A DNA stretch of 38,483 bases from a virus. Location: the IMG/VR virus record IMGVR_UViG_3300031183_000001; one strand, 5' to 3'. Position 1 is the stretch's first letter. Every line of letters begins with the position of its first letter. The notes below the pieces were generated by a model that was given only the letters and a program-made list of their open reading frames with translations, was not told where the DNA came from and searched no databases. Shown piece after piece: positions 1-38,483 of the stretch. Both the position numbers and the translations under genes were made by a program.

Positions 1-127
1 GGCGGCGCGTACCCAGCGGTCCTCGTCCCGGAGGTGGCGGACGACGACGGCGACGGTGCCCGGCTGGAGGCCGGGCAGCGCGGTCTGGAGGCGGGCGAGC
101 GGGTCGGGGCCCGGGTCGGCGCCGACC
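1..127. repeat. Terminal 127-bp copy, identical to 38357-38483 (circular assembly overlap)
   Basis: Base-for-base identity: ggcggcgcgtacccagcgg...gtcggcgccgacc occurs at both ends. Confidence 0.95.
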
Positions 128-9480: not shown

Positions 9481-9663
9481 GAGCTCCACGCGACGCCTCC
9501 TGCAACGAGTTGCAACGTGATGTGCGGACAACACACTAACTCGCGTGGCATCGCGTTGCAACTCGTCTCATGACGAGACATCACGTCGCGTGATGATGCG
9601 ACTTGCAGCGCATTGCGAGACGGAACTATGTCCGGATCGTGTGATCGTGCTACAACGTGCTAC
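9481..9663. promoter_or_regulatory. Divergent switch region with several inverted and direct repeats (candidate operators)
   Basis: ACGAGTTGCAACG 9505-9517 pairs with CGTTGCAACTCGT 9554-9566. GTCTC-N5-GAGAC at 9565-9579. CATCACG-TCG-CGTGATG at 9579-9595, plus an extra CGTGATG at 9516-9522. Confidence 0.7.
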
Positions 9664-10077
9664 ATGACAGACGAGACGCCGGGCGTCGCGTACGACCTGT
9701 GGTTGCGCGTGCGCGCCGAGCAGGCATCCCGGGGCTGGACCGACGTCGAGCTACAGCGCCGATCGGGCATCCCACGGGGCACGGTCGACCGCCTACGGCG
9801 CGGCAAACGGGTACCCCAGGCACGGGTCGTCAACGCGCTGGCTGATGCGCTCGGAATCCCCCGCGCCGAGGCGGCCCGGCTCGCCGGGCTCGTCCCCGAA
9901 GGGCCAGCACCGGCGGCCGGCCAGGTCTCCGTGCGAGAGGCGATCCAACAGGATCCGACCTACACTGATGATGAACGCGCGGTCCTGCTGGCCCTGGTCG
10001 ACCTCATCGATCGGGCAGCAGCCCGTCGGCGTCGACGCCAGAAGGATGACGACGGCGACGACGAGGAAGCGGCCTAG
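9664..10077 (+). CDS. XRE-family HTH transcriptional regulator, candidate prophage repressor, 137 aa
   Basis: The HTH region reads WTDVELQRRSGIPRGTVDRLRRGKRVPQARVVNALADALG. Divergent from the lytic operon and adjacent to the integrase. The start is ambiguous (ATG 9664, ATG 9628 or TTG 9613). Confidence 0.8.
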   Translation: MTDETPGVAYDLWLRVRAEQASRGWTDVELQRRSGIPRGTVDRLRRGKRVPQARVVNALADALGIPRAEAARLAGLVPEGPAPAAGQVSVREAIQQDPTYTDDERAVLLALVDLIDRAAARRRRRQKDDDGDDEEAA

Positions 10078-11408
10078 TCGTCCTGGCTGATGGCGTCGTC
10101 GAGCGCGGTGATCACCGCGTCCTCGGCCGCCGGCATCAGGTCCCCGTAGATCTCGCTGGTGGTCGAGAGCTGTGCATGCCCGAGCCGGCGGGAGATAGCT
10201 AGGGGCGTGACGCGGGGATCGCTGAACAACCAGGCCGCGTGCGAGTGCCGCAGATCATGGGGTGTCGGCCGGCGGCGGAGCACCCCGGGACAGTCACAGG
10301 TGGACACCGCGGCCGGATCAGGGCCCATGTGAGCGTGGCAGCGAGTCATCCCGGCCGCGGTGATGGCGCCGCACGGCTCACCATGGTCGTTGGTGCCGCC
10401 GTAGTCGCGGCAGCGGCGGCGGCCCGGCTCAGCCCGGGGGACGCCCCGGTTCGGCGGCGGATGCGCCGGGCAGCGCATGGCGCGGATGACCGCCGGGTCC
10501 CAGTGCCGGAGCCGCCAGTTCCGGTAGTGGATCATGCCGCCGTTGGTCGCTCTGATCAGGAGCGCGTCGGCCGGTTGGCCCTCGACGAGCGGCCGGAGCG
10601 TCTCGTACAGGGCGTCGCTGATCGCGATCTCGCGGCGGCGTCGGCCCTTGGTGGTGCCCAGGTAGAGGCCGCCCCTGCCGTCCCGTTTCCAGGCCCGCCA
10701 GATCCTGACCTTCGCCCTGGAGGTGCCCGTCGGTGGCACGATGTGCCCCACGCTGAGCGCGACCGCCTCGGACCAGCGTGCACCCGTGCCGGCCAGCAGC
10801 TCGACCAGCGGACGATCCGCCGGGTCGACCGCCGCCAGCAACACCCGGTACTCCTCATGAGTAAGCCTCACCTGGCCGGGCTCGCCGGTGTCGTCGTGCT
10901 CGGTCAGGTCGCGGATCCAGTCGGTGCGCGTCACCGGGTTGTCGTCGATGAGCCGCTCGTGCACCGCCGCCCGGAACAGGGCATGCAACAGGGTGTAGTA
11001 GCGTGTCACGGATGTCGACCGGAGCCCGTCGGCGCGCAATCTGTTGAGAAAAGTGCCGATCTCGGTCGGGGTGACCCGGTCCAACCTCCTGTCGCCGATC
11101 GCGGGGTAGATGCGGTTGGCAAGCTGGGCCGCGTACCCGGCCCTGGTACCGGGGGTGATCCTCGTCTTGGCGGCCAGCCAGCGCTCGGCCCACTCGCGGA
11201 CGGTGGGCACCGTGGTGGTGTCCTCGTCGACGTCGAGGACGCCCATGGCGGCGTAGAGCTGGTCGGCTGTGATCTGGTGCCGGTGCGCCTCGGCGATGTC
11301 CCGGGCCTGCGCGGCGAGGTCCGCGGTGGGCCAGCTTGTGTACTGCTTGACGCCGTCGCGGCGCCAGACGACGCGCCAGGATCCGCCCCGCTGCTCGATC
11401 GATGCCAC
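10074..11408 (-). CDS. int: Tyrosine integrase, 444 aa, with a Cys/His-rich insertion in the catalytic domain
   Basis: Catalytic residues are readable: R in TGARWSE, H-x-x-R in HDLRHSH, H in LGHAQ, Y in EIYGDL. GTG start at 11408. The attP core lies about 135 bp upstream. Confidence 0.92.
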   Translation of the reverse strand: MASIEQRGGSWRVVWRRDGVKQYTSWPTADLAAQARDIAEAHRHQITADQLYAAMGVLDVDEDTTTVPTVREWAERWLAAKTRITPGTRAGYAAQLANRIYPAIGDRRLDRVTPTEIGTFLNRLRADGLRSTSVTRYYTLLHALFRAAVHERLIDDNPVTRTDWIRDLTEHDDTGEPGQVRLTHEEYRVLLAAVDPADRPLVELLAGTGARWSEAVALSVGHIVPPTGTSRAKVRIWRAWKRDGRGGLYLGTTKGRRRREIAISDALYETLRPLVEGQPADALLIRATNGGMIHYRNWRLRHWDPAVIRAMRCPAHPPPNRGVPRAEPGRRRCRDYGGTNDHGEPCGAITAAGMTRCHAHMGPDPAAVSTCDCPGVLRRRPTPHDLRHSHAAWLFSDPRVTPLAISRRLGHAQLSTTSEIYGDLMPAAEDAVITALDDAISQDD

Positions 11409-11421
11409 GCCGCGAGGCTAC

Positions 11422-11439
11422 GTCCCCATGGGGACAGAC
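11422..11439. repeat. 14-bp perfect palindrome GTCCCCATGGGGAC overlapping a GGGGACAGAC copy (candidate arm-type Int site)
   Basis: GGGGACAGAC at 11430-11439 recurs at 11658-11667 on the other side of the attP core. Confidence 0.5.
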
Positions 11440-11543
11440 GCCAGGGGCTTCAGCGCGTTTCCTGGTGACTGATCGTGCGATCCGCACATCAATTTCGGGG
11501 CAGATCCGGACATCCCGAGGTAGGGGCAACCGGTCGCAGCGGC

Positions 11544-11587
11544 CTTTTAATCAGCGGGTTCAGGGTTCGAGTCCCTGGCGGCCCACC
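11544..11587 (+). other. attP core: 3' half of a tRNA-Lys(UUU) gene, from anticodon loop to acceptor end; not an intact tRNA
   Basis: Parts in order: loop CTTTTAA, 3' anticodon stem TCAGC, variable GGGTT, T-arm CAGGG-TTCGAGT-CCCTG, acceptor GCGGCCC, discriminator A, then CC. No matching 5' acceptor strand or D-arm upstream. Confidence 0.8.
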
Positions 11588-11604
11588 GCCGTCACCAGGG
11601 CAAA

Positions 11605-11633
11605 CGCCCCGCCGGAGCGGGTCCGGCGGGGCG
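11605..11633 (-). terminator. Hairpin terminator downstream of the 11670..11954 gene
   Basis: CGCCCCGCCGGA-GCGGG-TCCGGCGGGGCG, a 12-bp stem. On the minus strand it is followed by TTTG. Confidence 0.6.
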
Positions 11634-11646
11634 CTACTCATCGTGT

Positions 11647-11667
11647 GGGGACACTTTGGGGACAGAC
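11647..11667. repeat. GGGGACAC / GGGGACAGAC direct repeats (candidate arm-type Int sites)
   Basis: GGGGACAC at 11647-11654 and GGGGACAGAC at 11658-11667; the latter is identical to 11430-11439. Confidence 0.5.
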
Positions 11668-11669
11668 CC

Positions 11670-11954
11670 CTACTCATCGCCGATGGCGCGTAGCGCCTGG
11701 GCCAGCCGGTCGACCGTCGTGGCCACGCCGTCCCGGTACGTGCCGCAGCAGTGAGCGACCGCCCTGACCACGATCGCCCCGATGATGGTGCACCCGCCGA
11801 GGATGATGACGGCCGTCGCGCCGGCGCCGGCCAGAGCAGTCGCCATCCTGGCGTGTCCGGCCTGCCAGGCCGCGACGCCCAGAGCGCCGAGCACCACCAC
11901 CCCGATCAAGGCTGCTGCACCGCCCGCGACGATCCACGCCCTTGTGGTTCTCAT
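11670..11954 (-). CDS. Small integral membrane protein, 94 aa, with 2-3 predicted TM helices
   Basis: Track ORF with ATG at 11954. Hydrophobic runs AWIVAGGAAALIGVVVLGALGVAAW and GATAVIILGGCTIIGAIVV. Confidence 0.7.
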   Translation of the reverse strand: MRTTRAWIVAGGAAALIGVVVLGALGVAAWQAGHARMATALAGAGATAVIILGGCTIIGAIVVRAVAHCCGTYRDGVATTVDRLAQALRAIGDE

Positions 11955-11983
11955 GACCCCGTCCGCCTAGGTTAGGTTTGCCT

Positions 11984-12022
11984 TCCTTCTTGCGATCTGC
12001 GAGTTGCAGATCGCAAGAAGGA
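11984..12022. repeat. 17-bp perfect inverted repeat with a 5-nt loop (hairpin or operator)
   Basis: TCCTTCTTGCGATCTGC-GAGTT-GCAGATCGCAAGAAGGA, located 30 bp upstream of the 11954 start codon. Confidence 0.85.
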
Positions 12023-12420
12023 GTCGATACAACATCCACACCTTACATTCCGGGTACCGGACAATCGTCTATCTAGGACCGTACGCTCGGCTAATAGCTG
12101 GCGGTAATCGGGTCATGATATCCGCGCCACGGTGGGTGATCTACGCAGCCAGGATCATGCGGGTGCAACCACTGTTGGTGGTCCAAATAGGACGCATAAA
12201 TCGATATCAGTCATATTCCTAGCTGTCCGACTCTGCGGATGGTGCAATTTCGCCATGTGGTGAAAGTCGGATTCCCGTCGCCTATGTGTGGGTGGAGGAG
12301 GCCGGGTGACGAAGCCGCCTCCTCCATGTCCCATCCAGCAGCGGCCTACTCCGTGGCCAGGCCGCACCACCAGTATCGACGGTCACCCAGGGGCAGCCGC
12401 TACCCTGGGGGTGTGCCAGA

Positions 12421-12435
12421 TTGGCACCGTGCCAA
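12421..12435. promoter_or_regulatory. Palindrome TTGGCACCGTGCCAA, candidate operator 5 bp upstream of the RBS of the WhiJ-like gene
   Basis: Perfect 15-bp palindrome. An identical copy lies at 13629-13643. Confidence 0.65.
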
Positions 12436-12454
12436 CAGCAGGGAGGTGCTAGAG

Positions 12455-13324
12455 ATGGCCGCGGTGAGCCCCCTCGCCCGCCGGCTCCGTCTCGGCGCCG
12501 AGATCCGACGACTGCGCGAGCAGCGCGGCATGACCGGCGCCGAGCTGGGCAAGGCCGCCGGCCTCGACAGGACCGCGATCAGCAAGATTGAGAACGGAGA
12601 GAGGCGACCCCTACCTGCGCTACTCCGAATCCTCGACGTCCTCGTCGACCAGGGCCCGGAGTACACCGGGCTGCTCCAAGTGGCCCGCGACGGCCTGGAG
12701 CGGGGCTGGTGGCAACAGCCGGCGTACGCCCGGATGGGCGAGCGGCAGGCACGGACCGCGGATCTGGAGTGCGGCAGCATCGCGATCAGCACCTACCAGA
12801 GCGCGATGCTGCCGGGTCTACTCCAGACCGAGGCGTACGCACGGCATCGCGCCGATCTGGCGATCGCTGGCGGCGCCGACATCGACCTGGATGGCTCCAC
12901 CGTCGGCCGCCTACGCCGCCAGCACGAGATCCTCGGCCCGGACGGGCCGACCTACGACGTCGTCCTAGAGCCGCAAGCCATCTGGCGGGCGCCCGTCCCG
13001 CCAGCGGTCATGGCCGAGCAACTCAAACACCTGCTCGACCTGATCACGACGCGACCGGGCCTGCGAGTCCGCGTGCTCCCGGTTGACGCCCGGGTCAACA
13101 CCGGATACGTGCCACGTAGCCCGTTCGTGGTCTACCGCTACCCCGACCCGGCCGACCTCACCCTGGTCGCCGTCGACACGGTGTCGACCGACCTGCTGGT
13201 GACCGAGCCGGCCGAGTCGGAGCGGTACGCGCAGATGCACCAGCAACTGTGCGCCGCCGCACTCTCCGAGGAGGAGAGTGCGGGTCTCATCCAGCAGGCG
13301 GCCGATGCGATGGCCGCCATGTAA
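12455..13324 (+). CDS. WhiJ-type XRE HTH regulator with DUF5753-like C-terminal domain, 289 aa
   Basis: ATG at 12455 with GGGAGG 8 nt upstream. HTH reads MTGAELGKAAGLDRTAISKIENGERRP. Hallmark motif LPGLLQTEAYARH. Confidence 0.88.
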   Translation: MAAVSPLARRLRLGAEIRRLREQRGMTGAELGKAAGLDRTAISKIENGERRPLPALLRILDVLVDQGPEYTGLLQVARDGLERGWWQQPAYARMGERQARTADLECGSIAISTYQSAMLPGLLQTEAYARHRADLAIAGGADIDLDGSTVGRLRRQHEILGPDGPTYDVVLEPQAIWRAPVPPAVMAEQLKHLLDLITTRPGLRVRVLPVDARVNTGYVPRSPFVVYRYPDPADLTLVAVDTVSTDLLVTEPAESERYAQMHQQLCAAALSEEESAGLIQQAADAMAAM

Positions 13325-13334
13325 GGAGGTCCCC

Positions 13335-13532
13335 GTGGAGTACAAGCCGTTCCGCAAGTCCAGCCGTAGCGATGCTGGTCAGGACTGCGTCGAGGTTGCC
13401 GACGCTGTCGACGGCAGCGCCGTCCTCGTCCGCGACAGCAAGGACCCGTCCGGCCCGGTGCTGAACTTCGGGTCGGTGTCCTGGTCGGCATTCGTCGACG
13501 CGGTCAAGGCCAAGGCTGGTCGCCTGGCCTGA
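13335..13532 (+). CDS. DUF397-family small protein, 65 aa
   Basis: GTG at 13335 with AAGGAGG upstream. Hallmark FRKSSRS...QDCVEVA...VLVRDSKDPSGPVLNF...W..F. Confidence 0.88.
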   Translation: MEYKPFRKSSRSDAGQDCVEVADAVDGSAVLVRDSKDPSGPVLNFGSVSWSAFVDAVKAKAGRLA

Positions 13533-13554
13533 CCTGACCTGTTCCTCACCTGGA

Positions 13555-13581
13555 GGGCCGGCAGCGGGATGCTGCCGGCCC
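13555..13581 (+). terminator. Hairpin terminator after the DUF397 gene
   Basis: GGGCCGGCAGC-GGGAT-GCTGCCGGCCC, an 11-bp stem. Confidence 0.6.
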
Positions 13582-13628
13582 TCGTCATGTTCGCTCCGTG
13601 ATTGCGGAGTGTCCTCTTGTGACATTGG

Positions 13629-13686
13629 TTGGCACCGTGCCAAGCTGGCACCGTGCTTCGGCACGGTGCCGGACCGGCACGGTGCA
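13629..13686. promoter_or_regulatory. Cluster of four GGCAC(C/G)GTGCC palindromic sites
   Basis: Sites at 13631-13641, 13647-13657, 13660-13670 and 13676-13686. The middle two also form GGCACCGTGC-TTCG-GCACGGTGCC. Confidence 0.7.
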
Positions 13687-13857
13687 AGGCGCACCGCTGG
13701 GCGCGGTAACACGGAGATCCCTTTGTGTTGACCACGCGCTCGGCACCCCAGGCGCCGCCTCGTCGCCTCCACGGGGCGGCGCCCCAGACCGGGTGTGGTG
13801 GTCGGAGCATGGACGGGCCCGGCCACCACGCCCCCGCCCGGACCAGGGGGTTGCGAG

Positions 13858-14028
13858 ATGGGCGCACGACACGAACACGAGGTCCGCAAGCGACAGCAGG
13901 CTGCCAGCGCCGGCCAGCAGCGGGACCAGAACGGCGACCAGGACGACGACCAGGACCGGGCACTGCTCGACCGGCTCGCCGACCGGTGGGGGCTCCCACA
14001 GGACGGGGGTCAGCGGTGCCCCCGCTGA
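13858..14028 (+). CDS. Small acidic/polar hypothetical protein, 56 aa
   Basis: ATG at 13858 within track ORF 13795..14028. Plausible amino-acid composition (MGARHEHEVRKRQQAASAGQQRDQNGDQDDDQDRALLDRLADRWGL...). Confidence 0.45.
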   Translation: MGARHEHEVRKRQQAASAGQQRDQNGDQDDDQDRALLDRLADRWGLPQDGGQRCPR

Positions 14029-14312
14029 CTCGCGCGCCTCGACCGGGCGACGTGCTCCGGGTGGCCAGAGCCGCGTCCGTCCAGTTCAGCGGTGACCGGG
14101 CACTCCGCTTCCGGGTCATCCGGGTGCATGACTGGACCACGTACCGGGGCTGGTGTTGGCTCGACGGCTACGTGCTCGACCGGCATGGTGAGGCGGTGGA
14201 CCGGCGGACGATCTACGTGCAGCCGGCAGGGCTGTGGCTGCTGGAGCCGCGGCAGGTGCCGGTACAGCGGCGGCCGGTCGGGGCCCGACGGCCGGCCGTG
14301 CGGCGCGCCTGA
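14016..14312 (+). CDS. Hypothetical protein, about 98 aa
   Basis: Only the C-terminal part of track ORF 13725..14312 looks protein-like (VQFSGDRALRFRVIRVHDWTTYRGWCWLDGYVLDRHGEAVDRRTIYVQPAGLWLLEP). The GTG at 14016 is a guess. Confidence 0.5.
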   Translation: MPPLTRAPRPGDVLRVARAASVQFSGDRALRFRVIRVHDWTTYRGWCWLDGYVLDRHGEAVDRRTIYVQPAGLWLLEPRQVPVQRRPVGARRPAVRRA

Positions 14313-14321
14313 CGGGCGCGC

Positions 14322-14397
14322 GGTGGCCCCGGCTGCCGGCACAGCCGGGGCCACCCCACGACGAACGGCCCCGGCCTCCTGTGTGGAGGCCGGGGCC
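14322..14397. terminator. Two strong hairpins between convergent genes (likely bidirectional terminators)
   Basis: GGTGGCCCCGGCTG-CCGGCA-CAGCCGGGGCCACC at 14322-14355. GGCCCCGGCCTCC-TGTGT-GGAGGCCGGGGCC at 14367-14397. Confidence 0.7.
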
Positions 14398-14470
14398 GGT
14401 GGACCGTCTGGGCCTACCCGGGTGAGGGCCGCGCCGAGCTGGGCATCCCGCAGGACGGCTGTCCAGCCTG

Positions 14471-14692
14471 TCATGCCGGCGAAGAACCAGCCTGCCGGAC
14501 GACCCAGGACCGTCGTAGCTGGTAGATACGCCTGCGCGCCAGCGGCTTGATCCTCCACCCCTCGCCCTCGGCGCCCCACACCTGGGCACGCCGATCCTCA
14601 TCGGCCAGCGAGCGTTGGATGGTGCGCGCGGAGACCTCCAGCAGCTTCGCCGCCTGGGCGACGCTTATCCACTCGCCATTGCCGCTGGTCAT
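14471..14692 (-). CDS. Small HTH DNA-binding protein, 73 aa, divergent from the translocase operon (Kor-like candidate)
   Basis: ATG at 14692 with GGGGGGAG upstream. Contains ISVAQAAKLLEVSARTIQRSL. Confidence 0.75.
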   Translation of the reverse strand: MTSGNGEWISVAQAAKLLEVSARTIQRSLADEDRRAQVWGAEGEGWRIKPLARRRIYQLRRSWVVRQAGSSPA

Positions 14693-14758
14693 GTCTCCCC
14701 CCGGGTCGCAGTCCACCACCGGATGATCCCACGACGGTCACGACACATCACGCTATGG

Positions 14759-14799
14759 CATGTCGCGACAGTTGCGCCAAACGCGACTGTCGCGACATG
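14759..14799. promoter_or_regulatory. Twin palindromes TGTCGCGACA within a 14-bp inverted repeat (candidate operators)
   Basis: CATGTCGCGACAGT at 14759-14772 and ACTGTCGCGACATG at 14786-14799, separated by a 13-bp spacer. The right arm overlaps the ATG at 14797. Confidence 0.7.
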
Positions 14800-16155
14800 A
14801 TGACGGGCATGAACATCACGGAGATCGCCGAGACGGTCACCAACGCCGTGCGCGACCACATCCAGCCCGTCCTCATCGGCGCTGGCGCGGTCGGCACCCT
14901 GATCGGCCTCTGGACGATCTGGCGGTGGTGGACCCGCGGCGAGGCCCACACCCGCATGGGTGTCCTCGCCGTCGCCCTGGCCACCGGTATCGCCGGCGAG
15001 GGCATGTGGGAGGTCGCGCGGTACGAGCTGGAACTGCCCCCGTACCTCGCCGTCGCGTTGTTCGCGTTCCTTGAGGTCGTCATGCTCAGCCAGGGCGCGA
15101 TGGCCCGGTACAAGCTGCGCGCCGGCCAAGAGCCCGCCGCCCGCCGGCACATGGGCTTCGTGTGGGCCGCCGCGGTGGCCTCTGGCCTGATCGCGGCCAG
15201 CGCCGGCAACTCGCTGACCGAGGTGCTCCTTCGGCTGATCGCCCCACCAGTCGCGGCCGGCATCGTGTGGATGGAGCTGACCGCCGACCAGGCCGTCGAC
15301 CGGCCCCGCCAGCAGACGAGCTGGATCTGGACGCCACGCCGCATCGGCATCCACCTCGGCCTGATCCGACCAGGCGCCGAGGACCTGGTCCAGGTCGACC
15401 GCGATCGTCGCATCGACGCGATCACCGTCACCGCCCACCGGCTGCACCACGGGTCGAAGAGGCTCGCCAGGATGCGCCGGGCCCGTCTCCGCCGGCTGGC
15501 GCTCCAGGCTGATGACGCGATGGTCGCCGAGGCGCAACGCCGGGTCGCCCGCGTTCACCGCATCGAGCGCCTGACCGCCCCCGACGCCGCGCCAGTCGAC
15601 CAGGTCGACGACCGGACCCGCGCCGCGCTGGACGAGATCCGCCTCCAGACCCGGGAGACCACCCGCCAGCTCCGCGCGCAGATGCCGACGCCGGACCACG
15701 CGTGGTCCAACAACGTGGTCCGCATCCCGACCCGTCTGGTGGGTCAGGGGTGGACCGCGCCGACGGACCAGGACGTGGACCGCTGGCTGGACCAGCAGTC
15801 GGACCAGACGGTGGACCACGCTCCGGTCCAGACCGCGGACCAGGCTGCGGACCAGACCGAGGGCACCGAGTCGGACCAGACGGTGGACCAGCCGGCGCGG
15901 GTAGACCGGCAGGTCAACGGCCGGTCCAAGCGTCGGTCTACGCCGCCTGCCGACAGCACGATCCCGCCCCGCGTCCAGCAGATGGCGCGAGAGCTTCGCC
16001 GCCGCTACCGGGGCGAGATCCCGCCCCGCGCAGAGGTGATGCGGACCCTCGGCTGGACGTCGGCGGACTACGCGAGCAAGGCAATCAACCTGGTCCGCGC
16101 TGAGCGCACCCGCACGGACCAGACCGACCCCGACCCCGACCGCGCCGCGGTCTGA
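14797..16155 (+). CDS. Multi-pass membrane protein (DUF2637/Spd-like N-terminus), about 452 aa, with a DQxx tetrapeptide repeat region
   Basis: Four to five hydrophobic helices in the first ~170 aa, then an Arg-rich helical region, then the repeats. The start could be 14797, 14800 or 14809. Confidence 0.8.
   Translation: MMTGMNITEIAETVTNAVRDHIQPVLIGAGAVGTLIGLWTIWRWWTRGEAHTRMGVLAVALATGIAGEGMWEVARYELELPPYLAVALFAFLEVVMLSQGAMARYKLRAGQEPAARRHMGFVWAAAVASGLIAASAGNSLTEVLLRLIAPPVAAGIVWMELTADQAVDRPRQQTSWIWTPRRIGIHLGLIRPGAEDLVQVDRDRRIDAITVTAHRLHHGSKRLARMRRARLRRLALQADDAMVAEAQRRVARVHRIERLTAPDAAPVDQVDDRTRAALDEIRLQTRETTRQLRAQMPTPDHAWSNNVVRIPTRLVGQGWTAPTDQDVDRWLDQQSDQTVDHAPVQTADQAADQTEGTESDQTVDQPARVDRQVNGRSKRRSTPPADSTIPPRVQQMARELRRRYRGEIPPRAEVMRTLGWTSADYASKAINLVRAERTRTDQTDPDPDRAAV
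15752..15891 (+). repeat. 12-bp-phased array of GGACCAG
   Basis: Registers start at 15765, 15777, 15789 and so on up to 15885. Seven are perfect GGACCAG, three have one mismatch and one is degenerate. The exact 20-mer TCGGACCAGACGGTGGACCA occurs at 15799-15818 and 15871-15890. Confidence 0.9.
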
Positions 16156-16168
16156 AAGGAGATTCCTC

Positions 16169-16486
16169 GTGTTGACCCGAGTCCGCGCCCACATCACCCA
16201 CGCCCGCCGCGTCTGGGCCGAGCAGTCCCAGATCACCGCGGCGACGGCCACCTACTACGACGACACCGAGGCCCTGGCCACCCGGGCGGCTGCGGCTGAG
16301 CGGATCGCCACCGGCCTCGACCGGCAGGCAGCCCACCTGGCCGCCTCGTGGCTGGCCAGGGCCGTGACCGCGCTGCCGCCGTCGGACACCGTGCAGGCAA
16401 TGGCCGCCGACTGGCGGCGGCGCGCCGAGGAGATGTGGTACGACCTGGCGACCGCCCTCGACCTTGCCGAGGGTCACGGTGCGTAA
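16169..16486 (+). CDS. Hypothetical protein, 105 aa
   Basis: GTG at 16169 with AAAGGAG 7 nt upstream. Track ORF. Confidence 0.75.
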   Translation: MLTRVRAHITHARRVWAEQSQITAATATYYDDTEALATRAAAAERIATGLDRQAAHLAASWLARAVTALPPSDTVQAMAADWRRRAEEMWYDLATALDLAEGHGA

Positions 16487-16610
16487 CCTCAACCCCTTGA
16501 TCCATCAAGGGGTTGAGAAGGGGTCTACGGCGGTGAAAGCCGCCCCCGGGGCCGTCCCAGCGGCCATCAACCTCTTGACGCCTCAACCCCTTGAACAACC
16601 GTGCGTAACC
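16477..16610. repeat. Repeat cluster of CTCAACCCCTTGA(T) (two direct copies, one inverted, one degenerate) plus GTGCGTAACC x2; includes a 14-bp-stem hairpin
   Basis: Hairpin CTCAACCCCTTGAT-CC-ATCAAGGGGTTGAG at 16488-16517. CCTCAACCCCTTGA at 16581-16594. GTGCGTAACC at 16479-16488 and 16601-16610. Degenerate CATCAACCTCTTGA at 16566-16579. Confidence 0.85.
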
Positions 16611-17711
16611 GACGGGGCGAAGAAGACACCGGCGAAGCGGCGGCGGTCGCTGCTGTTGGATCCGGCCGTCATCGTCACCGGTATCACGCTGCTCCTGGTC
16701 GGCGAGCTGGTCCTGTGGGCCGCGGTCGGTTGGCTGTGGTGGGCCGTCATCAACATGGGGATCGCGTTGGTCGTAGCCGCCGGGGTTCTGGCGTGGCGAC
16801 GACGCACCCCTGGATGGCTCGACAGGCTGCTCGGCGGCCGTAGCCGGCCCGGTCGCACGTCGACGACGACAACGCGGACCACCACACGGGGGGCTGGTGT
16901 TCCAGGGCGGGGTGTCCTCAGCCGGCTGCTGCCCGGCCGCGGCCGGGGCACTGCCAGCCCGAGTGGTGGTGGCCGCGGCGGTGGCCGGCCGAGGGGTGTC
17001 CTGGGCGGCCTGCTCCCCGGTGGTGGCGGCCGGTCCGCCGGGCGGCCTGCTGGTGGCCGGTCGTCGACGGGCCGGCCCGGCCGCAGCCCCGGCGGCGGGT
17101 GGTGGCCGTTCGCCGGCGGCGGCCGGGGCAAGAGCAGCAGCCCGAGGAACCCGAAGAAGGGGAACGGGAACGGCAAGAAGAGCAACGGCAGCAGCGTCCT
17201 GGGCGACATCGTGCACGGGCTGACCACCCCGGCACCAGGACGCAAGCCGTCACCAGGACCAGCCGCGACGGCGGCCAAGAAGGAGACCGAACGGAAGGAG
17301 AGCGAGCCGATGACGGTGCGACACGACGACGACGCCAGCCTCCAGCGATGGGGCCGCAACCTCAAGACGATCAGCCCGGCCATCGAGGAGTTGCTCCAAG
17401 CGGCCCGGCAGCAAGACGAGCTGGCCGAAGCGATCGCCTCCGGCGTCTCCAAGCTGGCCGTACAGGGCGAGTCGGAGCTGCCCGCGGACCGGGCACTCGT
17501 CGCCGAGGCCGAGGCCATCGCCGCCGAGCTCCGCGAGCTGATGACCGACGACAGGGCCGGCAGGCTGGCTCGGCTCAGGGACCGCGCGGACGAGCTGGCG
17601 CGGTCATACGGACGCCTGCACGAGGTCGACGAGGCGCGGCTCGCCGGCGAGCGCGGCGGCCGCGCCCGGGAGAAGCGGGCGGACGTGGCCGCCGCCGAGA
17701 GCGACACCTGA
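16533..17711 (+). CDS. Membrane protein, about 392 aa: two TM helices, a long Gly/Arg-rich low-complexity tract, and a C-terminal coiled coil
   Basis: Track ORF 16464..17711. GTG at 16533 is chosen because it follows the stop and hairpin of the previous gene. TM region reads VIVTGITLLLVGELVLWAAVGWLWWAVINMGIALVVAAGVLAW. Confidence 0.7.
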   Translation: MKAAPGAVPAAINLLTPQPLEQPCVTDGAKKTPAKRRRSLLLDPAVIVTGITLLLVGELVLWAAVGWLWWAVINMGIALVVAAGVLAWRRRTPGWLDRLLGGRSRPGRTSTTTTRTTTRGAGVPGRGVLSRLLPGRGRGTASPSGGGRGGGRPRGVLGGLLPGGGGRSAGRPAGGRSSTGRPGRSPGGGWWPFAGGGRGKSSSPRNPKKGNGNGKKSNGSSVLGDIVHGLTTPAPGRKPSPGPAATAAKKETERKESEPMTVRHDDDASLQRWGRNLKTISPAIEELLQAARQQDELAEAIASGVSKLAVQGESELPADRALVAEAEAIAAELRELMTDDRAGRLARLRDRADELARSYGRLHEVDEARLAGERGGRAREKRADVAAAESDT

Positions 17712-17750
17712 CAGCAACGGAACACCACAGACACGACGAGGGGAGACATC

Positions 17751-19823
17751 ATGGGCGGGGCGCGATGGGTACCCGCATGGCTGCTGGTCATGGCCGGCAT
17801 GGTCGTCCTGCTACGCAGCGACGTACCCCTGGAGTGGTGGTTGCCGCTTGGCGTGGCCGCCGTCGCTGCAGTGGTGACACTGATCATCACCTTGGTCCTC
17901 GAACAGCAGAGAGCGCTGGTCCACCGCCTCGTCGCCGTCGTGGGTGCCGGTGTGTGGACGGCGTGGGTGGCCCGGTCCGGGCCGTCCACCCTGCTGGTGC
18001 TGGCCGCGCTCGGCGGCGGCGCGATCGTCGCCGCCCTGGAGGTCGCCGCCGCCCGGGGCCGACCCACGGTGCTGTGGGTCGGCCCCGCCCCGGCCGACGT
18101 CGACCGCCGGCCGGGGCGAGTCCAGGAATGGGAAGCCCTACTGCGGCGGGTCGTCGTCAAGAAGGGCAGCGAGGGCGCATCGGCCCAGATCCGGGTCACC
18201 GAGGTGACCCCGTGGCCGGACCGCACCGCCGGCGAACAGGTACACGTCGAGCTGCCCGAGGGCATGACCGTCAAGGACCTGGCCGCGTACGCGGACCGCA
18301 TCGCCGCCGCCCGCCGGCTGCCGGCCGGATGCGTCGTCCGCACCCTCGACGGCCCCCACCAAGGCGCCGCGGTCCTCGACGTCATGCTGCGCGACGGCCT
18401 CGCCGGCGACGGCCGGACGATCACCGAACCGACCACACCGGCCTCGATCTACGACCCGATCGACGTCGCGTACACCGCCCGCGGCGAGGCCCTATCCGTG
18501 TCACTGCGGGAGCAGAGCATGATCGTCGGCGGCACCACCGGCAGCGGCAAGACCACCTTGCTGCACCGGCTGATCATGCACCTCGCCCGGTGCACCGACA
18601 CGCTGATCTGGGTGGTCGACCCCAACGGCGGCGGGGTGGCCGCGCCGTGGATCGGCCCGTGGGCACGCGGTGAGGCGCCGGCGCCCACGGTGGATTGGGT
18701 GGCCGAGGACCCGTACGAGGCGGCCGTGCTGGTCGCGGTCGCGGCCGCGATCGTCAAGGACAGGAAGACATCCCAGGAGGCGCTCAGGAGGAAGCGGCAG
18801 GCGAACTCGCACATCTTGCCGGTGGACCGGGACCTGCCACTGATCATGGTGATTACCGACGAGGGCGGAGAGCTGCGGCAGATGGCCGGCCTGCTCGCCA
18901 CCCTCGTGGACGAGGGGATCGCCCGGCTCGCCCAGATCGGCCGCGCCGAAGGCGGACGCGTCATCATGTCTGTCCTCCGCGGTACCGCCGACCTGCTCGG
19001 CAAGGGGCTCAGGTCCGTCGCCGGCGTCCGGGTCTGTCTGAGGATGAACGAGGAAGACGAGTGCGACTACATCCTGGGCGTCAACCCCGGCCGTGCCCGC
19101 CTGCTGCACCGGGGCAGCGCCTACGTCTACCGCACCGACACCGACTACCGCCCCGTCCTCGGCCGCACCCTCAACGTCGACCTGGCTGCCATCGAACAGC
19201 ACGCGGTCGCGACCGCGCACCTGCGGCCGACTCTGGACGACCGCGCTCGCCGGGTCGCCGCCCGGCTCACCGTCCAGGACGTCCTCGATGGCCGTGACCC
19301 GATGCAGCACCTGGAGATTGCCCGGCACCCGGTGATGCGGGACGTGGCGGCCGGCCGCGCGTACGAGGGCCGCTGGGAACGCAAGGCACGCATGCTCGCC
19401 GAGCTGCGCGGCGAAGAAGAGCCGCCCGAGGAGGAGCCGGCGCCTCGACGGGTGCTGTCGGACCGGCCCACGGTGGCCGCCCCGGGCAGCGCGGCGGAGC
19501 GGCTGTTGCTGGCTACGGGCGTCCGTGTCGACACTCCGGCGGCTGTCGCCGTCGAGACGGACGCCCGGCCACGGCTGCGGCTGGTCCCCGACACCGGCGA
19601 AGCCGAGGAGCCGACGCGGCCGTCGACGGCCCGCGAAGCTATCCTCGCGGTCCTGAACGACGCGCGGCCGGACCCACTGAGGGCTGCCGAGGTCCACGCC
19701 CGGGTGGCCGCGGACTACGGCATCGAGGTGACCCCACAGCGGGTCCACCAGGTCCTGGCCGCGCTCGTCAAGGCGGGCGATGTGCGGCAGGCCGGCGGCG
19801 GCCGGTACGAGATGGCCAGCTAA
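17751..19823 (+). CDS. FtsK/SpoIIIE-family DNA translocase with TraB-like architecture, 690 aa
   Basis: About four N-terminal TM helices. Walker A GGTTGSGKTT (around 18531-18554) and Walker B LPLIMVITDEGGE. The C-terminal ~70 aa look like a winged helix (REAILAVLNDARPDPLRAAEVHARVAADYGIEVTPQRVHQVLAALVKAGDV). ATG at 17751 with GAGGGGAG upstream. Confidence 0.92.
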   Translation: MGGARWVPAWLLVMAGMVVLLRSDVPLEWWLPLGVAAVAAVVTLIITLVLEQQRALVHRLVAVVGAGVWTAWVARSGPSTLLVLAALGGGAIVAALEVAAARGRPTVLWVGPAPADVDRRPGRVQEWEALLRRVVVKKGSEGASAQIRVTEVTPWPDRTAGEQVHVELPEGMTVKDLAAYADRIAAARRLPAGCVVRTLDGPHQGAAVLDVMLRDGLAGDGRTITEPTTPASIYDPIDVAYTARGEALSVSLREQSMIVGGTTGSGKTTLLHRLIMHLARCTDTLIWVVDPNGGGVAAPWIGPWARGEAPAPTVDWVAEDPYEAAVLVAVAAAIVKDRKTSQEALRRKRQANSHILPVDRDLPLIMVITDEGGELRQMAGLLATLVDEGIARLAQIGRAEGGRVIMSVLRGTADLLGKGLRSVAGVRVCLRMNEEDECDYILGVNPGRARLLHRGSAYVYRTDTDYRPVLGRTLNVDLAAIEQHAVATAHLRPTLDDRARRVAARLTVQDVLDGRDPMQHLEIARHPVMRDVAAGRAYEGRWERKARMLAELRGEEEPPEEEPAPRRVLSDRPTVAAPGSAAERLLLATGVRVDTPAAVAVETDARPRLRLVPDTGEAEEPTRPSTAREAILAVLNDARPDPLRAAEVHARVAADYGIEVTPQRVHQVLAALVKAGDVRQAGGGRYEMAS

Positions 19824-38137: not shown

Positions 38138-38483
38138 TCATGCGGCCGTCGCCGCCGCCACCGTCGCCCACACGTGCGCCGCACCCTCCACCACGACCGG
38201 CATCCGGCACCGGCACCCCTGCCCGGCACAACGGCACCGCGCCCCGCAGACGACGACACCGTGGTGACGGCCAGTCGGCAGCAGCCTCAGCGGTCGGGCC
38301 CCGCAGACCGGGCACTCGGTGCCGGCGAGCAGCTCGCCGGGCGGGTCGAGTCGCAGGGCGGCGCGTACCCAGCGGTCCTCGTCCCGGAGGTGGCGGACGA
38401 CGACGGCGACGGTGCCCGGCTGGAGGCCGGGCAGCGCGGTCTGGAGGCGGGCGAGCGGGTCGGGGCCCGGGTCGGCGCCGACC
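38138..38483 (-). CDS. 3' part of the 208-aa hypothetical protein split by the linearisation point (Cys-rich C-terminus)
   Basis: Same frame as 1..408 when the circle is closed at 38356/1. TGA at 38140-38138. C-terminus reads ECPVCGARPLRLLPTGRHHGVVVCGARCRCAGQGCRCRMP. Confidence 0.7.
   Translation of the reverse strand, partial: VGADPGPDPLARLQTALPGLQPGTVAVVVRHLRDEDRWVRAALRLDPPGELLAGTECPVCGARPLRLLPTGRHHGVVVCGARCRCAGQGCRCRMPVVVEGAAHVWATVAAATAA
38357..38483. repeat. Terminal 127-bp copy, identical to 1-127
   Basis: Same sequence as 1-127. Confidence 0.95.

What the first reader, a model, noticed from the sequence alone, without database searches (positions are those of the whole stretch)
12455..13532. 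Phage-borne WhiJ-type XRE(DUF5753-like) plus DUF397 gene pair
The 289-aa protein has an XRE-type HTH and the LPGLLQTEAYAR hallmark of the WhiJ/AbaA-like family. The tightly linked 65-aa protein has the DUF397 hallmark (KSSRS...CVEVA...VRDSKDP).

In Streptomyces and relatives these pairs are chromosomal, highly paralogous, linked to developmental and antibiotic control, and mechanistically unresolved. Some are annotated as antitoxin-like.

A copy on the lysogeny-side strand of a phage suggests either manipulation of host development or sporulation by the prophage, or use as an immunity or abortive-infection type module.
Basis: partly seen in the sequence, partly recalled or inferred. Interest (0 to 1): 0.7.

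Follow-up and report, generated by a model that had tools for sequence, protein, structure and literature searches.

The report
Phage-borne WhiJ/BldB-type regulator gene cassette
A temperate phage of Micromonospora-like bacteria carries a self-contained regulatory gene pair of the WhiJ/BldB family, which controls development and antibiotic production in actinomycetes; such pairs are already present but undiscussed in known phages, and this compact copy, with clear predicted binding sites and one or two likely target genes, could make the family's unknown mechanism easier to test.

Summary
Bases 12455-13324 encode a 289-aa XRE-HTH + DUF5753 protein, and 13335-13532 encode a 65-aa DUF397 protein. 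The Pfam E-values are 2e-39 and 5e-20. The window is a complete temperate siphophage genome with a 127-bp terminal repeat. Its attP matches the 3' end of Micromonospora tRNA-Lys.

A phage-borne copy is not new. PHROGs holds both families, and five Streptomyces phages carry the pair. In prophage Samy both genes are among the most expressed in all 10 non-inducing conditions.

The new part is the anatomy. A palindrome, GGCAC-N-GTGCC, occurs exactly three times in the window (0.18 expected), and all three flank the pair. One copy lies between a -10-like TACCCT and the ribosome-binding site of the XRE gene. Four units overlap a conserved promoter-like element after the DUF397 terminator, upstream of two small genes.

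This layout is conserved in Micromonospora prophages whose XRE protein is 66-67% identical. In more distant loci the half-sites change at both positions together.

My best reading is an autoregulated, lysogeny-expressed moron whose XRE protein controls adjacent variable cargo and whose DUF397 protein modulates it. A separate CI-like repressor argues against an immunity role. The biological role is untested.

The parts
12401..12406 (+). -10-like hexamer TACCCT of the inferred promoter P1
   Evidence: TAC[CG]CT is found at the matching upstream position in the window, in all 6 orthologous loci with 66-67% identical XRE protein, and in L009 and three L011 cassettes. The promoter function is inferred.
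12413..12434 (.). P1 operator: GTGCCA-gat-TGGCAC-c-GTGCCA, between the -10-like hexamer and the ribosome-binding site
   Evidence: It holds one of only 3 exact GGCACNGTGCC sites in the window (0.18 expected; 0 of 100 shuffles reach 3). A perfect GGCAC-N-GTGCC lies at the same place in L005, L006, L008, L140 and L162.
12455..13324 (+). XRE-HTH + DUF5753 regulator (WhiJ/Scr1 type), 289 aa
   Evidence: Pfam HTH_31 E 1.2e-13 and DUF5753 E 2.3e-39. phrog_9908 E 1.6e-51. AlphaFold2 model with pLDDT 95.9.
13335..13532 (+). DUF397 (BldB-type) small protein, 65 aa
   Evidence: Pfam DUF397 E 5e-20. phrog_10815 E 1.7e-18. A GGAGG ribosome-binding site lies in the 10-bp gap.
13553..13583 (+). GC-rich hairpin directly after the DUF397 stop codon, inferred terminator of the operon
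   Evidence: 13-bp stem, -32 kcal/mol, z -2.7. A hairpin is present at the same position in every related locus.
13616..13686 (+). P2: conserved CTTGTGACAT (-35-like GTGACA), a 16-nt spacer, -10-like CAAGCT, overlapped and followed by four GGCAC-N-GTGC(C) units at 13631, 13647, 13660 and 13676
   Evidence: In IMG/VR, all 8 high-GC matches to the P2 pattern lie 93-131 bp downstream of a DUF397 gene. The array can also fold as RNA (-50 kcal/mol).
13858..14028 (+). orfA, a 56-aa acidic protein; inferred first cargo gene of P2
   Evidence: Third-position GC is 0.84. Against the 99%-identical contig L004 there is a 5-nt indel just upstream of the ATG and an in-frame 3-nt indel inside the ORF. No family match.
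14016..14312 (+). orfB, a 98-aa basic protein (pI 11.7) of an unnamed family; inferred second cargo gene
   Evidence: 445 cluster representatives at E<=1e-3 and a conserved core AASVQF...W.WLDGY. In L166 a homologue sits divergently next to another XRE-DUF5753/DUF397 pair.
14322..14398 (.). Two strong hairpins (14322-14355 and 14366-14398) that close the cassette and separate it from the convergent gene at 14471-14719
   Evidence: -75 kcal/mol, z -5.4; repeats I13 and I22.

Best explanation
The pair is a self-contained, lysogeny-expressed regulatory cassette (a moron) of the WhiJ/BldB (XRE-DUF5753/DUF397) family, carried by a temperate Micromonospora-type phage.

Proposed mechanism:
1. The XRE protein binds the palindrome GGCAC-N-GTGCC, probably as a dimer.
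2. One site lies between the -10 element and the ribosome-binding site of its own operon, so the protein represses itself.
3. Four sites overlap a second promoter (P2) just after the operon's terminator, so the protein also controls the small genes downstream. These are orfA and orfB here and different small proteins in related phages.
4. The co-transcribed DUF397 protein does not bind DNA. It modulates the XRE protein by direct contact and sets when the cargo is released.

Shown here: family membership; the operon anatomy; the restriction of the motif to the two flanks; its conservation and co-variation in related loci; and a separate CI-like repressor elsewhere in the genome.

Inferred: DNA binding by this protein, the direction of regulation, the role of DUF397, and the biological effect of the cargo.
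For: - Family membership.
- Motif restricted to the pair: exact GGCACNGTGCC occurs 3 times, all flanking the pair, against 0.18 expected (positions).
- Conservation: the window and all 6 loci with 66-67% identical XRE protein have the perfect palindrome upstream, plus the P2 element with 2-4 units 84-107 bp after the DUF397 stop, while the surrounding intergenic DNA has diverged.
- Co-variation: in L009 and L163 (60% identity) the half-site changes from GGCAC to GACAC at both P1 and P2.
- Association: the P2 pattern in IMG/VR is tied to DUF397 in 8 of 8 high-GC hits.
- Mobility: the cassette sits next to attP here but between tail and lysis genes in L005-L008 and L162, and its cargo differs.
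- Expression of homologues: SAMYPH_90/91 are in the most-expressed gene set in 10 of 10 non-inducing conditions.
- Family precedent (PMC10294661): WhiJ9 binds DNA in its own intergenic region downstream of its promoter, shows about 2-fold autorepression and controls the neighbouring gene iosA. BldB does not bind DNA and hetero-oligomerises. 129 natural WhiJ-BldB fusions exist.
- Independent link to cargo: an orfB homologue lies next to a different XRE-DUF5753/DUF397 pair in L166.
Against: - No binding or expression data exist for this phage.
- The promoter assignments rest on conservation only. The generic sigma-70 and terminator scans found nothing.
- WhiJ9 binds direct repeats (CGxxCTCAAC), not palindromes, and activates its target, so the family precedent is not exact.
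- The P2 array also folds into a very stable RNA hairpin with a UUCG loop (-50 kcal/mol, z -5.7). It could be a second terminator.
- The Streptomyces phage copies do not show this operator and P2 layout.
- Neither cargo protein has a known function.
Confidence: 0.55

Rival explanations
1. The pair manipulates the host. The phage DUF397 or XRE protein plugs into the host's own WhiJ/BldB/AbaA network, for example by hetero-oligomerising with host BldB paralogues, and so changes sporulation or antibiotic production in the lysogen. This is compatible with the best explanation as its biological output.
For: - BldB hetero-oligomerises with paralogues, and loss of BldB changes development (PMC10294661).
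- Overexpressing or deleting pairs in S. coelicolor changes antibiotic production and differentiation (PMC10364602).
- The closest XRE homologues are in Micromonospora genomes, which carry many such pairs.
- The Samy homologues are expressed in lysogens.
- Phage Darolandstone carries the full trio with an AbaA-like HATPase_c_2 protein.
Against: - No host target was identified.
- The operator motif is local to the cassette. Host genomes could not be scanned for it.
- The proteins most similar to the phage XRE (66-68% identity), where context was examined, are themselves prophage-borne. This suggests a phage-restricted lineage rather than a recent capture of a host developmental regulator.
Confidence: 0.2
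2. The cassette is a superinfection-exclusion or abortive-infection module. It holds an effector (orfA/orfB, or the DUF397 protein itself) under tight repression and releases it when another phage infects.
For: - It sits in a moron position at the prophage end next to attP, beside a 94-aa membrane protein.
- The cargo under a conserved regulatory unit is variable.
- DUF397 genes are linked to about 4% of VMAP-ternary conflict systems (PMC7159879).
- The HTH domain resembles CapH and restriction-modification controller proteins.
Against: - PADLOC gives only matches to the HTH domain of the XRE protein (capH, control protein, RmrA models); DUF397, orfA and orfB match nothing.
- No recognisable effector domain is present.
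- orfB has no homologue in 50,697 phage records.
Confidence: 0.12
3. The XRE protein is the phage's master immunity repressor, or part of the lysis-lysogeny switch, with the DUF397 protein acting as its anti-repressor.
For: - It is an XRE-type HTH protein on the strand opposite the lytic genes and close to the integrase.
- It is expressed in lysogeny in Samy.
- The predicted autoregulation resembles that of CI-type repressors.
Against: - A separate 154-aa HTH_31/HTH_3 protein (9613-10077) occupies the canonical position between the integrase and the divergent early operon.
- The operator motif is absent from the early and late regions.
- In related prophages the cassette sits between tail and lysis genes.
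- Samy has a different putative immunity repressor, SAMYPH_32.
Confidence: 0.06
4. The pair is a type II toxin-antitoxin system, with DUF397 as toxin and XRE as antitoxin, that stabilises the prophage.
For: - This is the original comparative-genomics prediction (PMC2701414).
- It is a bicistronic operon with predicted autoregulation and an HTH protein encoded first.
Against: - None of the 14 S. coelicolor pairs tested, nor Scr1/Scr2, behaved as a toxin-antitoxin system (PMC10364602, PMC6262351).
- The XRE partner is a 289-aa two-domain protein, not a short labile antitoxin.
- DUF397 has no known toxin fold.
Confidence: 0.05

Closest known systems
iosA-whiJ9-bldB9 locus of Streptomyces venezuelae (PMC10294661)
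   Same: - An XRE-DUF5753 regulator is followed by a DUF397 gene.
- The regulator's binding site lies downstream of its own promoter, giving autorepression.
- The regulator controls an adjacent small gene of unknown fold.
- The DUF397 partner does not bind DNA.
   Different: - WhiJ9 binds three direct repeats (CGxxCTCAAC) and activates iosA from 113 bp upstream.
- Here the sites are palindromes that overlap the core promoters, which suggests repression.
- The target lies downstream of the DUF397 gene rather than divergent from the regulator.
- This copy is phage-borne, not chromosomal.
Scr1/Scr2 (SCO4441/SCO4442) and the other 14 XRE-DUF397 pairs of S. coelicolor (PMC6262351, PMC10364602)
   Same: Same two-gene architecture and the same Pfam domains. 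These pairs are pleiotropic regulators, not toxin-antitoxin systems.
   Different: They are chromosomal, their operators and direct targets are largely undefined, and identity to the window protein is low. The best NCBIfam match, Sco1979, scores 110.8 bits against a cut-off of 350.
Phage copies: Samy SAMYPH_91/90, Success gp6/gp7, and Darolandstone, Picard and Mojorita gp26/gp25 (phrog_9908 and phrog_10815)
   Same: All carry an XRE-DUF5753 plus DUF397 pair on a temperate actinophage. In Samy the layout is also integrase, attP, small genes, then the pair, and the pair is expressed in the lysogen.
   Different: - Identity is only 27-30% for the XRE protein and 44-58% for the DUF397 protein.
- The hosts are Streptomyces.
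- The GGCAC-N-GTGCC operators and the P2-cargo layout were not seen there.
- Darolandstone adds an AbaA-like HATPase_c_2 gene, which is absent here.
Controller (C) proteins of restriction-modification systems, such as C.Esp1396I and C.BclI
   Same: They are the best structural matches for the HTH domain. They bind adjacent palindromic operators in their own promoter and act as concentration-dependent switches for a downstream gene.
   Different: C proteins are about 80 aa with no second domain and no DUF397 partner. This is a resemblance in how the system may work, not family membership.

Membership tests
WhiJ/Scr1-type XRE-DUF5753 regulators | N-terminal Cro/C1-type HTH domain | tested here: met
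   HTH_31 E 1.2e-13 and HTH_3 E 2.8e-11. Structural matches to C proteins and HipB.
WhiJ/Scr1-type XRE-DUF5753 regulators | Full-length C-terminal DUF5753 domain with the LPGLLQTE motif | tested here: met
   DUF5753 matched over 2-178 of 178 profile positions, E 2.3e-39. P120, G121, L122, Q124 and T125 are invariant or nearly invariant.
WhiJ/Scr1-type XRE-DUF5753 regulators | A DUF397 gene immediately downstream on the same strand | tested here: met
   10-bp gap containing a GGAGG ribosome-binding site.
WhiJ/Scr1-type XRE-DUF5753 regulators | Orthology to a named member (NCBIfam Sco1979 equivalog) | tested here: not met
   110.8 bits against a cut-off of 350. It is a family member but not an orthologue of Sco1979.
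WhiJ/Scr1-type XRE-DUF5753 regulators | Sequence-specific DNA binding and autorepression | not testable with these tools
   Only inferred, from operators that are conserved and co-vary.
BldB/DUF397 small proteins | DUF397 domain, at most about 100 aa, with CxE and RDS motifs | tested here: met
   E 5e-20 over 53 of 55 profile positions. CVE and RDS are seen in the sequence. The motif definition is from PMC7159879.
BldB/DUF397 small proteins | Homo- or hetero-oligomerisation; no DNA binding | not testable with these tools
   Known for BldB and BldB9 (PMC10294661).
whiJ-bldB-abaA three-gene clusters | An adjacent AbaA-like HATPase_c_2 (anti-sigma-like) gene | tested here: not met
   No HATPase match in any neighbouring gene. 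Phage Darolandstone gp27 does have one.
Type II toxin-antitoxin systems | One partner is toxic and the other neutralises it | not testable with these tools
   The literature is negative for 15 S. coelicolor pairs. DUF397 has no sequence match to a solved structure, so no toxin fold could be recognised.
Phage CI-type immunity repressors | Sits between the integrase and a divergent early operon, with operators at the early promoters | tested here: not met
   Another HTH gene (9613-10077) holds that position. The operator motif occurs only beside the pair.
Morons (independent prophage transcription units) | Own promoter and terminator, variable position among related phages, and expression in the lysogen | tested here: inconclusive
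   Terminator hairpins and conserved promoter-like elements are present. The position varies among relatives. Expression is shown only for the Samy homologues.
Catalogued anti-phage defence systems (PADLOC) | Match to a defence-system protein model beyond the HTH domain | tested here: not met
   Only HTH-level matches for the XRE protein (capH, control protein, RmrA); nothing for DUF397, orfA or orfB.

The most novel reading that the evidence does not exclude
Actinophages carry a portable WhiJ/BldB switch. It consists of a dimeric XRE protein with a catalytically degenerate phospholipase-D-like sensor domain, a DUF397 partner, and a fixed two-promoter operator layout. This switch keeps interchangeable small effector genes silent in the lysogen and releases them on a signal. 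The effectors would reprogram host development or exclude rival phages. If so, the phage version would be the minimal natural form of the WhiJ/BldB system and would reveal its general mechanism.
Probability: 0.15. Interest if true: 0.75.

Novelty: new member of a known kind. Interest (0 to 1): 0.45.

Why it matters
BldB was among the first four bld developmental genes identified in Streptomyces, yet its biochemical function is still unknown. Actinomycete genomes that have bldB carry a median of 19 paralogues (PMC10294661), which makes genetics difficult.

A phage-borne copy is isolated from that redundancy. It comes with a short, well-defined predicted operator at two promoters and one or two candidate target genes, so it offers a small system for direct tests:
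- Does the XRE protein bind these sites?
- Does the DUF397 protein release it?
- What does the cargo do?

It also raises a question that the papers searched here do not address: why do temperate actinophages repeatedly carry, and in Samy express, members of a host developmental regulator family?

Tried and rejected
- Megablast of 9500-16500 against 50,697 phage records found no match.
- The generic sigma-70 promoter and intrinsic-terminator scans found 0 sites, so they are uninformative for this 72% GC genome.
- ARAGORN found no tRNA in the window. The attP tRNA fragment was found by eye and then confirmed against genomes.
- The first genome scan, with a 39-mer that included the degenerate anticodon arm, found nothing.
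- Rfam found no family in the window.
- Foldseek against BFVD returned only HTH-level matches.
- PADLOC gave only HTH-level matches.
- Pfam, PHROGs and a phage tblastn search gave nothing for orfA or orfB.
- The sequence search of solved structures (PDB) found nothing for DUF5753 or DUF397.
- The longer ORFs 12239-13324 and 13278-13532 were rejected as the true gene extents.
- The ORFs 13725-14312, 13379-14140(-) and 14010-14579(-) were rejected as whole genes on codon-position GC. The 5-nt indel against L004 also argues against 13725-14312.
- The P2 array as a purely RNA structure was considered. The predicted hairpin is mostly invariant (covariation term -0.52), and its central pair is broken in 3 of 9 sequences. 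The same sequence also recurs at P1. I therefore prefer protein operators, but the RNA reading is not excluded.
- The Streptomyces phage copies were searched for the same operators, and none were seen.
Full report
**1. The observation**

The ORF at 12455-13324(+) encodes a 289-aa protein. It matches HTH_31 (E 1.2e-13) and HTH_3, and it matches DUF5753 over the whole profile (E 2.3e-39). The ORF at 13335-13532(+) encodes a 65-aa DUF397 protein (E 5e-20).

Codon-position GC is typical of real genes in this 72% GC genome: third position 0.87 and 0.85, second position about 0.5. The possible 5' extension 12239-12454 does not show this pattern.

The ATG at 12455 follows a GGGAGG. Orthologues start at the same conserved N-terminus, SPLARRLRLG. 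The DUF397 gene starts 10 bp after the XRE stop codon, behind a GGAGG. The coordinates and the family assignment are correct.

**2. The surroundings**

The window has a 127-bp terminal direct repeat, so it is a complete, circularly assembled genome of about 38.4 kb.

On the minus strand it carries:
- the large terminase, portal, capsid, tape-measure and amidase genes;
- a tyrosine integrase (10074-11408);
- excisionase-like HTH genes;
- a replication initiator, a DnaC-like loader and a UvrD-like helicase.

Between the integrase and the pair lies a 31-nt stretch (11557-11587) identical to the 3' end of Micromonospora tRNA-Lys(UUU). Its anticodon arm is degenerate. This is the attP core.

After integration the pair would therefore sit at the prophage end opposite the integrase. 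In Streptomyces phage Samy the order around attP is the same: integrase, attP, small genes, then the pair.

A second XRE-type protein (9613-10077, HTH_31 E 6e-8) sits between the integrase and the divergent early operon. That is the canonical position of a CI-like repressor.

**3. The anatomy of the cassette**

The palindrome GGCAC-N-GTGCC occurs exactly three times in the window, against 0.18 expected. None of 100 shuffles reached three. All three copies flank the pair.

Upstream, GTGCCA-gat-TGGCAC-c-GTGCCA (12413-12434) lies between a -10-like TACCCT (12401-12406) and the ribosome-binding site.

Downstream, a GC-rich hairpin (13553-13583) follows the DUF397 stop codon. Then comes a conserved CTTGTGACAT, and 16 nt later a CAAGCT. 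Four palindromic units at 13631, 13647, 13660 and 13676 overlap and follow this element.

Two small ORFs with good coding signal come next:
- orfA (13858-14028, 56 aa). Its coding status is supported by comparison with a 99%-identical contig, which shows a 5-nt indel just upstream of the ATG and an in-frame 3-nt indel inside the ORF.
- orfB (14016-14312, 98 aa, pI 11.7). It belongs to an unnamed family with 445 cluster representatives.

Two strong hairpins (14322-14398) close the unit.

**4. Comparative evidence**

The closest XRE homologues, at 65-68% identity, are in Micromonospora.

Six such loci were read: L005, L006, L008 and L140 from IMG/VR proviruses, L162 from M. cathayae, and the near-duplicate L007. 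In these the pair lies between tail genes and the lysis cassette, not next to the integrase.

Despite that different position, each locus has the same layout:
- TAC[CG]CT upstream;
- a perfect GGCAC-N-GTGCC before the ribosome-binding site;
- a terminator hairpin after the DUF397 gene;
- the CTTGTGAYRT element 84-107 bp after the DUF397 stop, with 2-4 palindromic units.

The surrounding intergenic DNA has diverged.

In loci with 60% identity (L009, L163) the half-site becomes GACAC/GTGTC at both the upstream and the downstream position. This is what one expects if the locus's own regulator reads both sites.

A pattern scan of IMG/VR for the P2 element gave 30 hits. All 8 high-GC hits lie 93-131 bp downstream of a DUF397 gene. 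The other 22 are unrelated low-GC sequences.

The gene after P2 differs between loci. It is orfA/orfB here, a Cys-rich protein of about 145 aa in L005-L008 and L162, and other small CxxC proteins elsewhere.

An orfB homologue also sits divergently beside an unrelated XRE-DUF5753/DUF397 pair in L166. This is an independent link between that family and this kind of regulator.

**5. Mechanism**

The best-supported reading is an autoregulated bicistronic operon. Its XRE protein binds the palindromes at its own promoter and at P2. The operator positions, at or after the -10 element and across the core of P2, suggest repression.

The precedent is WhiJ9 of S. venezuelae (PMC10294661):
- It binds its own intergenic region downstream of its promoter.
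- It shows about 2-fold autorepression.
- It controls the neighbouring gene iosA.
- BldB does not bind DNA and hetero-oligomerises with paralogues.
- 129 natural WhiJ-BldB fusions exist.

By analogy, the DUF397 protein would be a modulator of the XRE protein. These steps are inferred, not shown. WhiJ9 uses direct repeats and activates its target, so the analogy is not exact.

The P2 array can also fold into a -50 kcal/mol RNA hairpin. However, the predicted pairs are mostly invariant rather than covarying, the central pair is broken in 3 of 9 sequences, and the same sequence recurs at P1. I therefore favour protein operators without excluding an RNA role.

**6. Structure**

AlphaFold2 gives a confident model, with pLDDT 95.9 for the full protein and 93.9 for DUF5753 alone.

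The HTH domain resembles restriction-modification controller proteins and HipB.

The best PDB matches for DUF5753 are all phospholipase-D-superfamily domains:
- NgoAVII R protein (E 1.7e-3, TM-score 0.48 normalised to the query);
- SauUSI (0.41-0.43);
- PLD3 (0.44-0.46);
- Streptomyces PLD (0.29-0.35).

The scores are borderline, and no HKD motif appears among the conserved residues. This is a lead, not a finding. From my own knowledge, single-HKD nucleases act as dimers, which would suit binding to palindromic sites.

**7. Comparison with what is known**

The pair is a member of the XRE-DUF5753/DUF397 family (WhiJ/BldB, Scr1/Scr2).

It lacks the AbaA-like third gene. It falls below the Sco1979 equivalog cut-off.

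Phage-borne copies already exist:
- PHROGs 9908 and 10815;
- phages Samy, Success, Darolandstone, Picard and Mojorita. Darolandstone even carries the AbaA-like HATPase_c_2 protein, annotated there as 'histidine kinase'.

In Samy both genes are in the most-expressed gene set in 10 of 10 non-inducing conditions. A different gene is the putative immunity repressor.

The toxin-antitoxin idea has been tested and not supported for 15 S. coelicolor pairs.

In the searchable library I found no paper that discusses these pairs in phages.

**8. Verdict**

The pair itself is a new member of a known kind.

The conserved operator, terminator, P2 and variable-cargo layout, and its movement between positions in different prophages, were not found described in the papers searched. 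They make the family's mechanism more directly testable.

The biological role (host development, exclusion of other phages, or something else) remains open.

Noticed in passing
window 1-127 and 38357-38483: A 127-bp terminal direct repeat: the window is a complete, circularly assembled phage genome of about 38.4 kb.
   Followed up: yes
window 11557-11587: attP core: 31 nt identical to the 3' end of Micromonospora tRNA-Lys(UUU), preceded by a degenerate anticodon arm. Several Micromonospora genomes carry extra partial copies of this tRNA end, which suggests other elements use the same site.
   Followed up: yes
window 9613-10077 (+) and 9579-9595: A 154-aa HTH_31/HTH_3 protein that converges on the integrase gene and is divergent from the early operon; probably the CI-like repressor. 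An inverted repeat, CATCACG-tcg-CGTGATG, lies in the 50-bp divergent region.
   Followed up: partly
window 12722-13324 (DUF5753 domain): The predicted fold of DUF5753 gives its best PDB matches to phospholipase-D-superfamily domains only (NgoAVII R, SauUSI, PLD3, Streptomyces PLD). TM-scores are 0.29-0.48, and no HKD motif was seen. I found no paper describing this.
   Followed up: partly
window 14016-14312; loci L164-L168: orfB belongs to an unnamed family of proteins of about 100 aa in Micromonosporaceae (445 cluster representatives, core AASVQF..FRVIRV.DW.TY.GW.WLDGY, basic tail) with no Pfam or PHROG model. It is found in prophage accessory regions, and once divergently next to another XRE-DUF5753/DUF397 pair.
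   Followed up: partly
L005 5297-5740, L162 11302-12119, L009 7752-7961, L010 7637-8067, L011 10753-11037 and 12917-13626, L163 11625-12018: The genes after the P2 element in related loci often encode small proteins that share a Cys motif, roughly CxxC-x4-5-C-x4-W/Y (for example RRCTWCSSPFPCTAVQWA and RYCGWCGGTWPCERYRWA). Their function is unknown.
   Followed up: no
window 14755-19823 (+) and 14759-14799: A plus-strand block of four genes ends in an FtsK/SpoIIIE-like ATPase (phrog_31069, E 2.6e-57). The three before it have no family match. An 18-bp-arm inverted repeat (TGTCGCGACA twice) lies at the block's start.
   Followed up: no
window 11955-12454, hairpin 11984-12022: A 500-bp relatively AT-rich intergenic region lies between the 94-aa membrane-protein gene and the XRE gene. 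It holds a perfect 17-bp-stem hairpin (-33 kcal/mol, z -6.5) about 30 bp upstream of the membrane-protein start codon.
   Followed up: no
window 11670-11954 (-): A 94-aa predicted membrane protein lies directly next to attP and has no family match. The position is typical of lysogenic-conversion or exclusion genes.
   Followed up: no
L002 2308-2751 (phage Darolandstone gp27): The gene annotated 'histidine kinase' is a 147-aa HATPase_c_2 protein divergent from the XRE-DUF397 pair. This amounts to a complete whiJ-bldB-abaA-type trio on an isolated phage.
   Followed up: partly
L011 8001-12740; L010 5286-7110: One metagenome contig carries three XRE-DUF397 cassettes in tandem, each with its own P1 and P2 elements. 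A 59.6-kb phage contig that encodes a DNA polymerase III alpha subunit carries the pair plus an extra orphan DUF397 gene.
   Followed up: partly
window 10074-11408 (-): The tyrosine integrase matches the Pfam catalytic domain in two stretches. From the translation, an insertion rich in Cys and His (about residues 300-380, for example CRDYGGTNDHGEPCG..CHAH..CDC) appears to lie between them.
   Followed up: no
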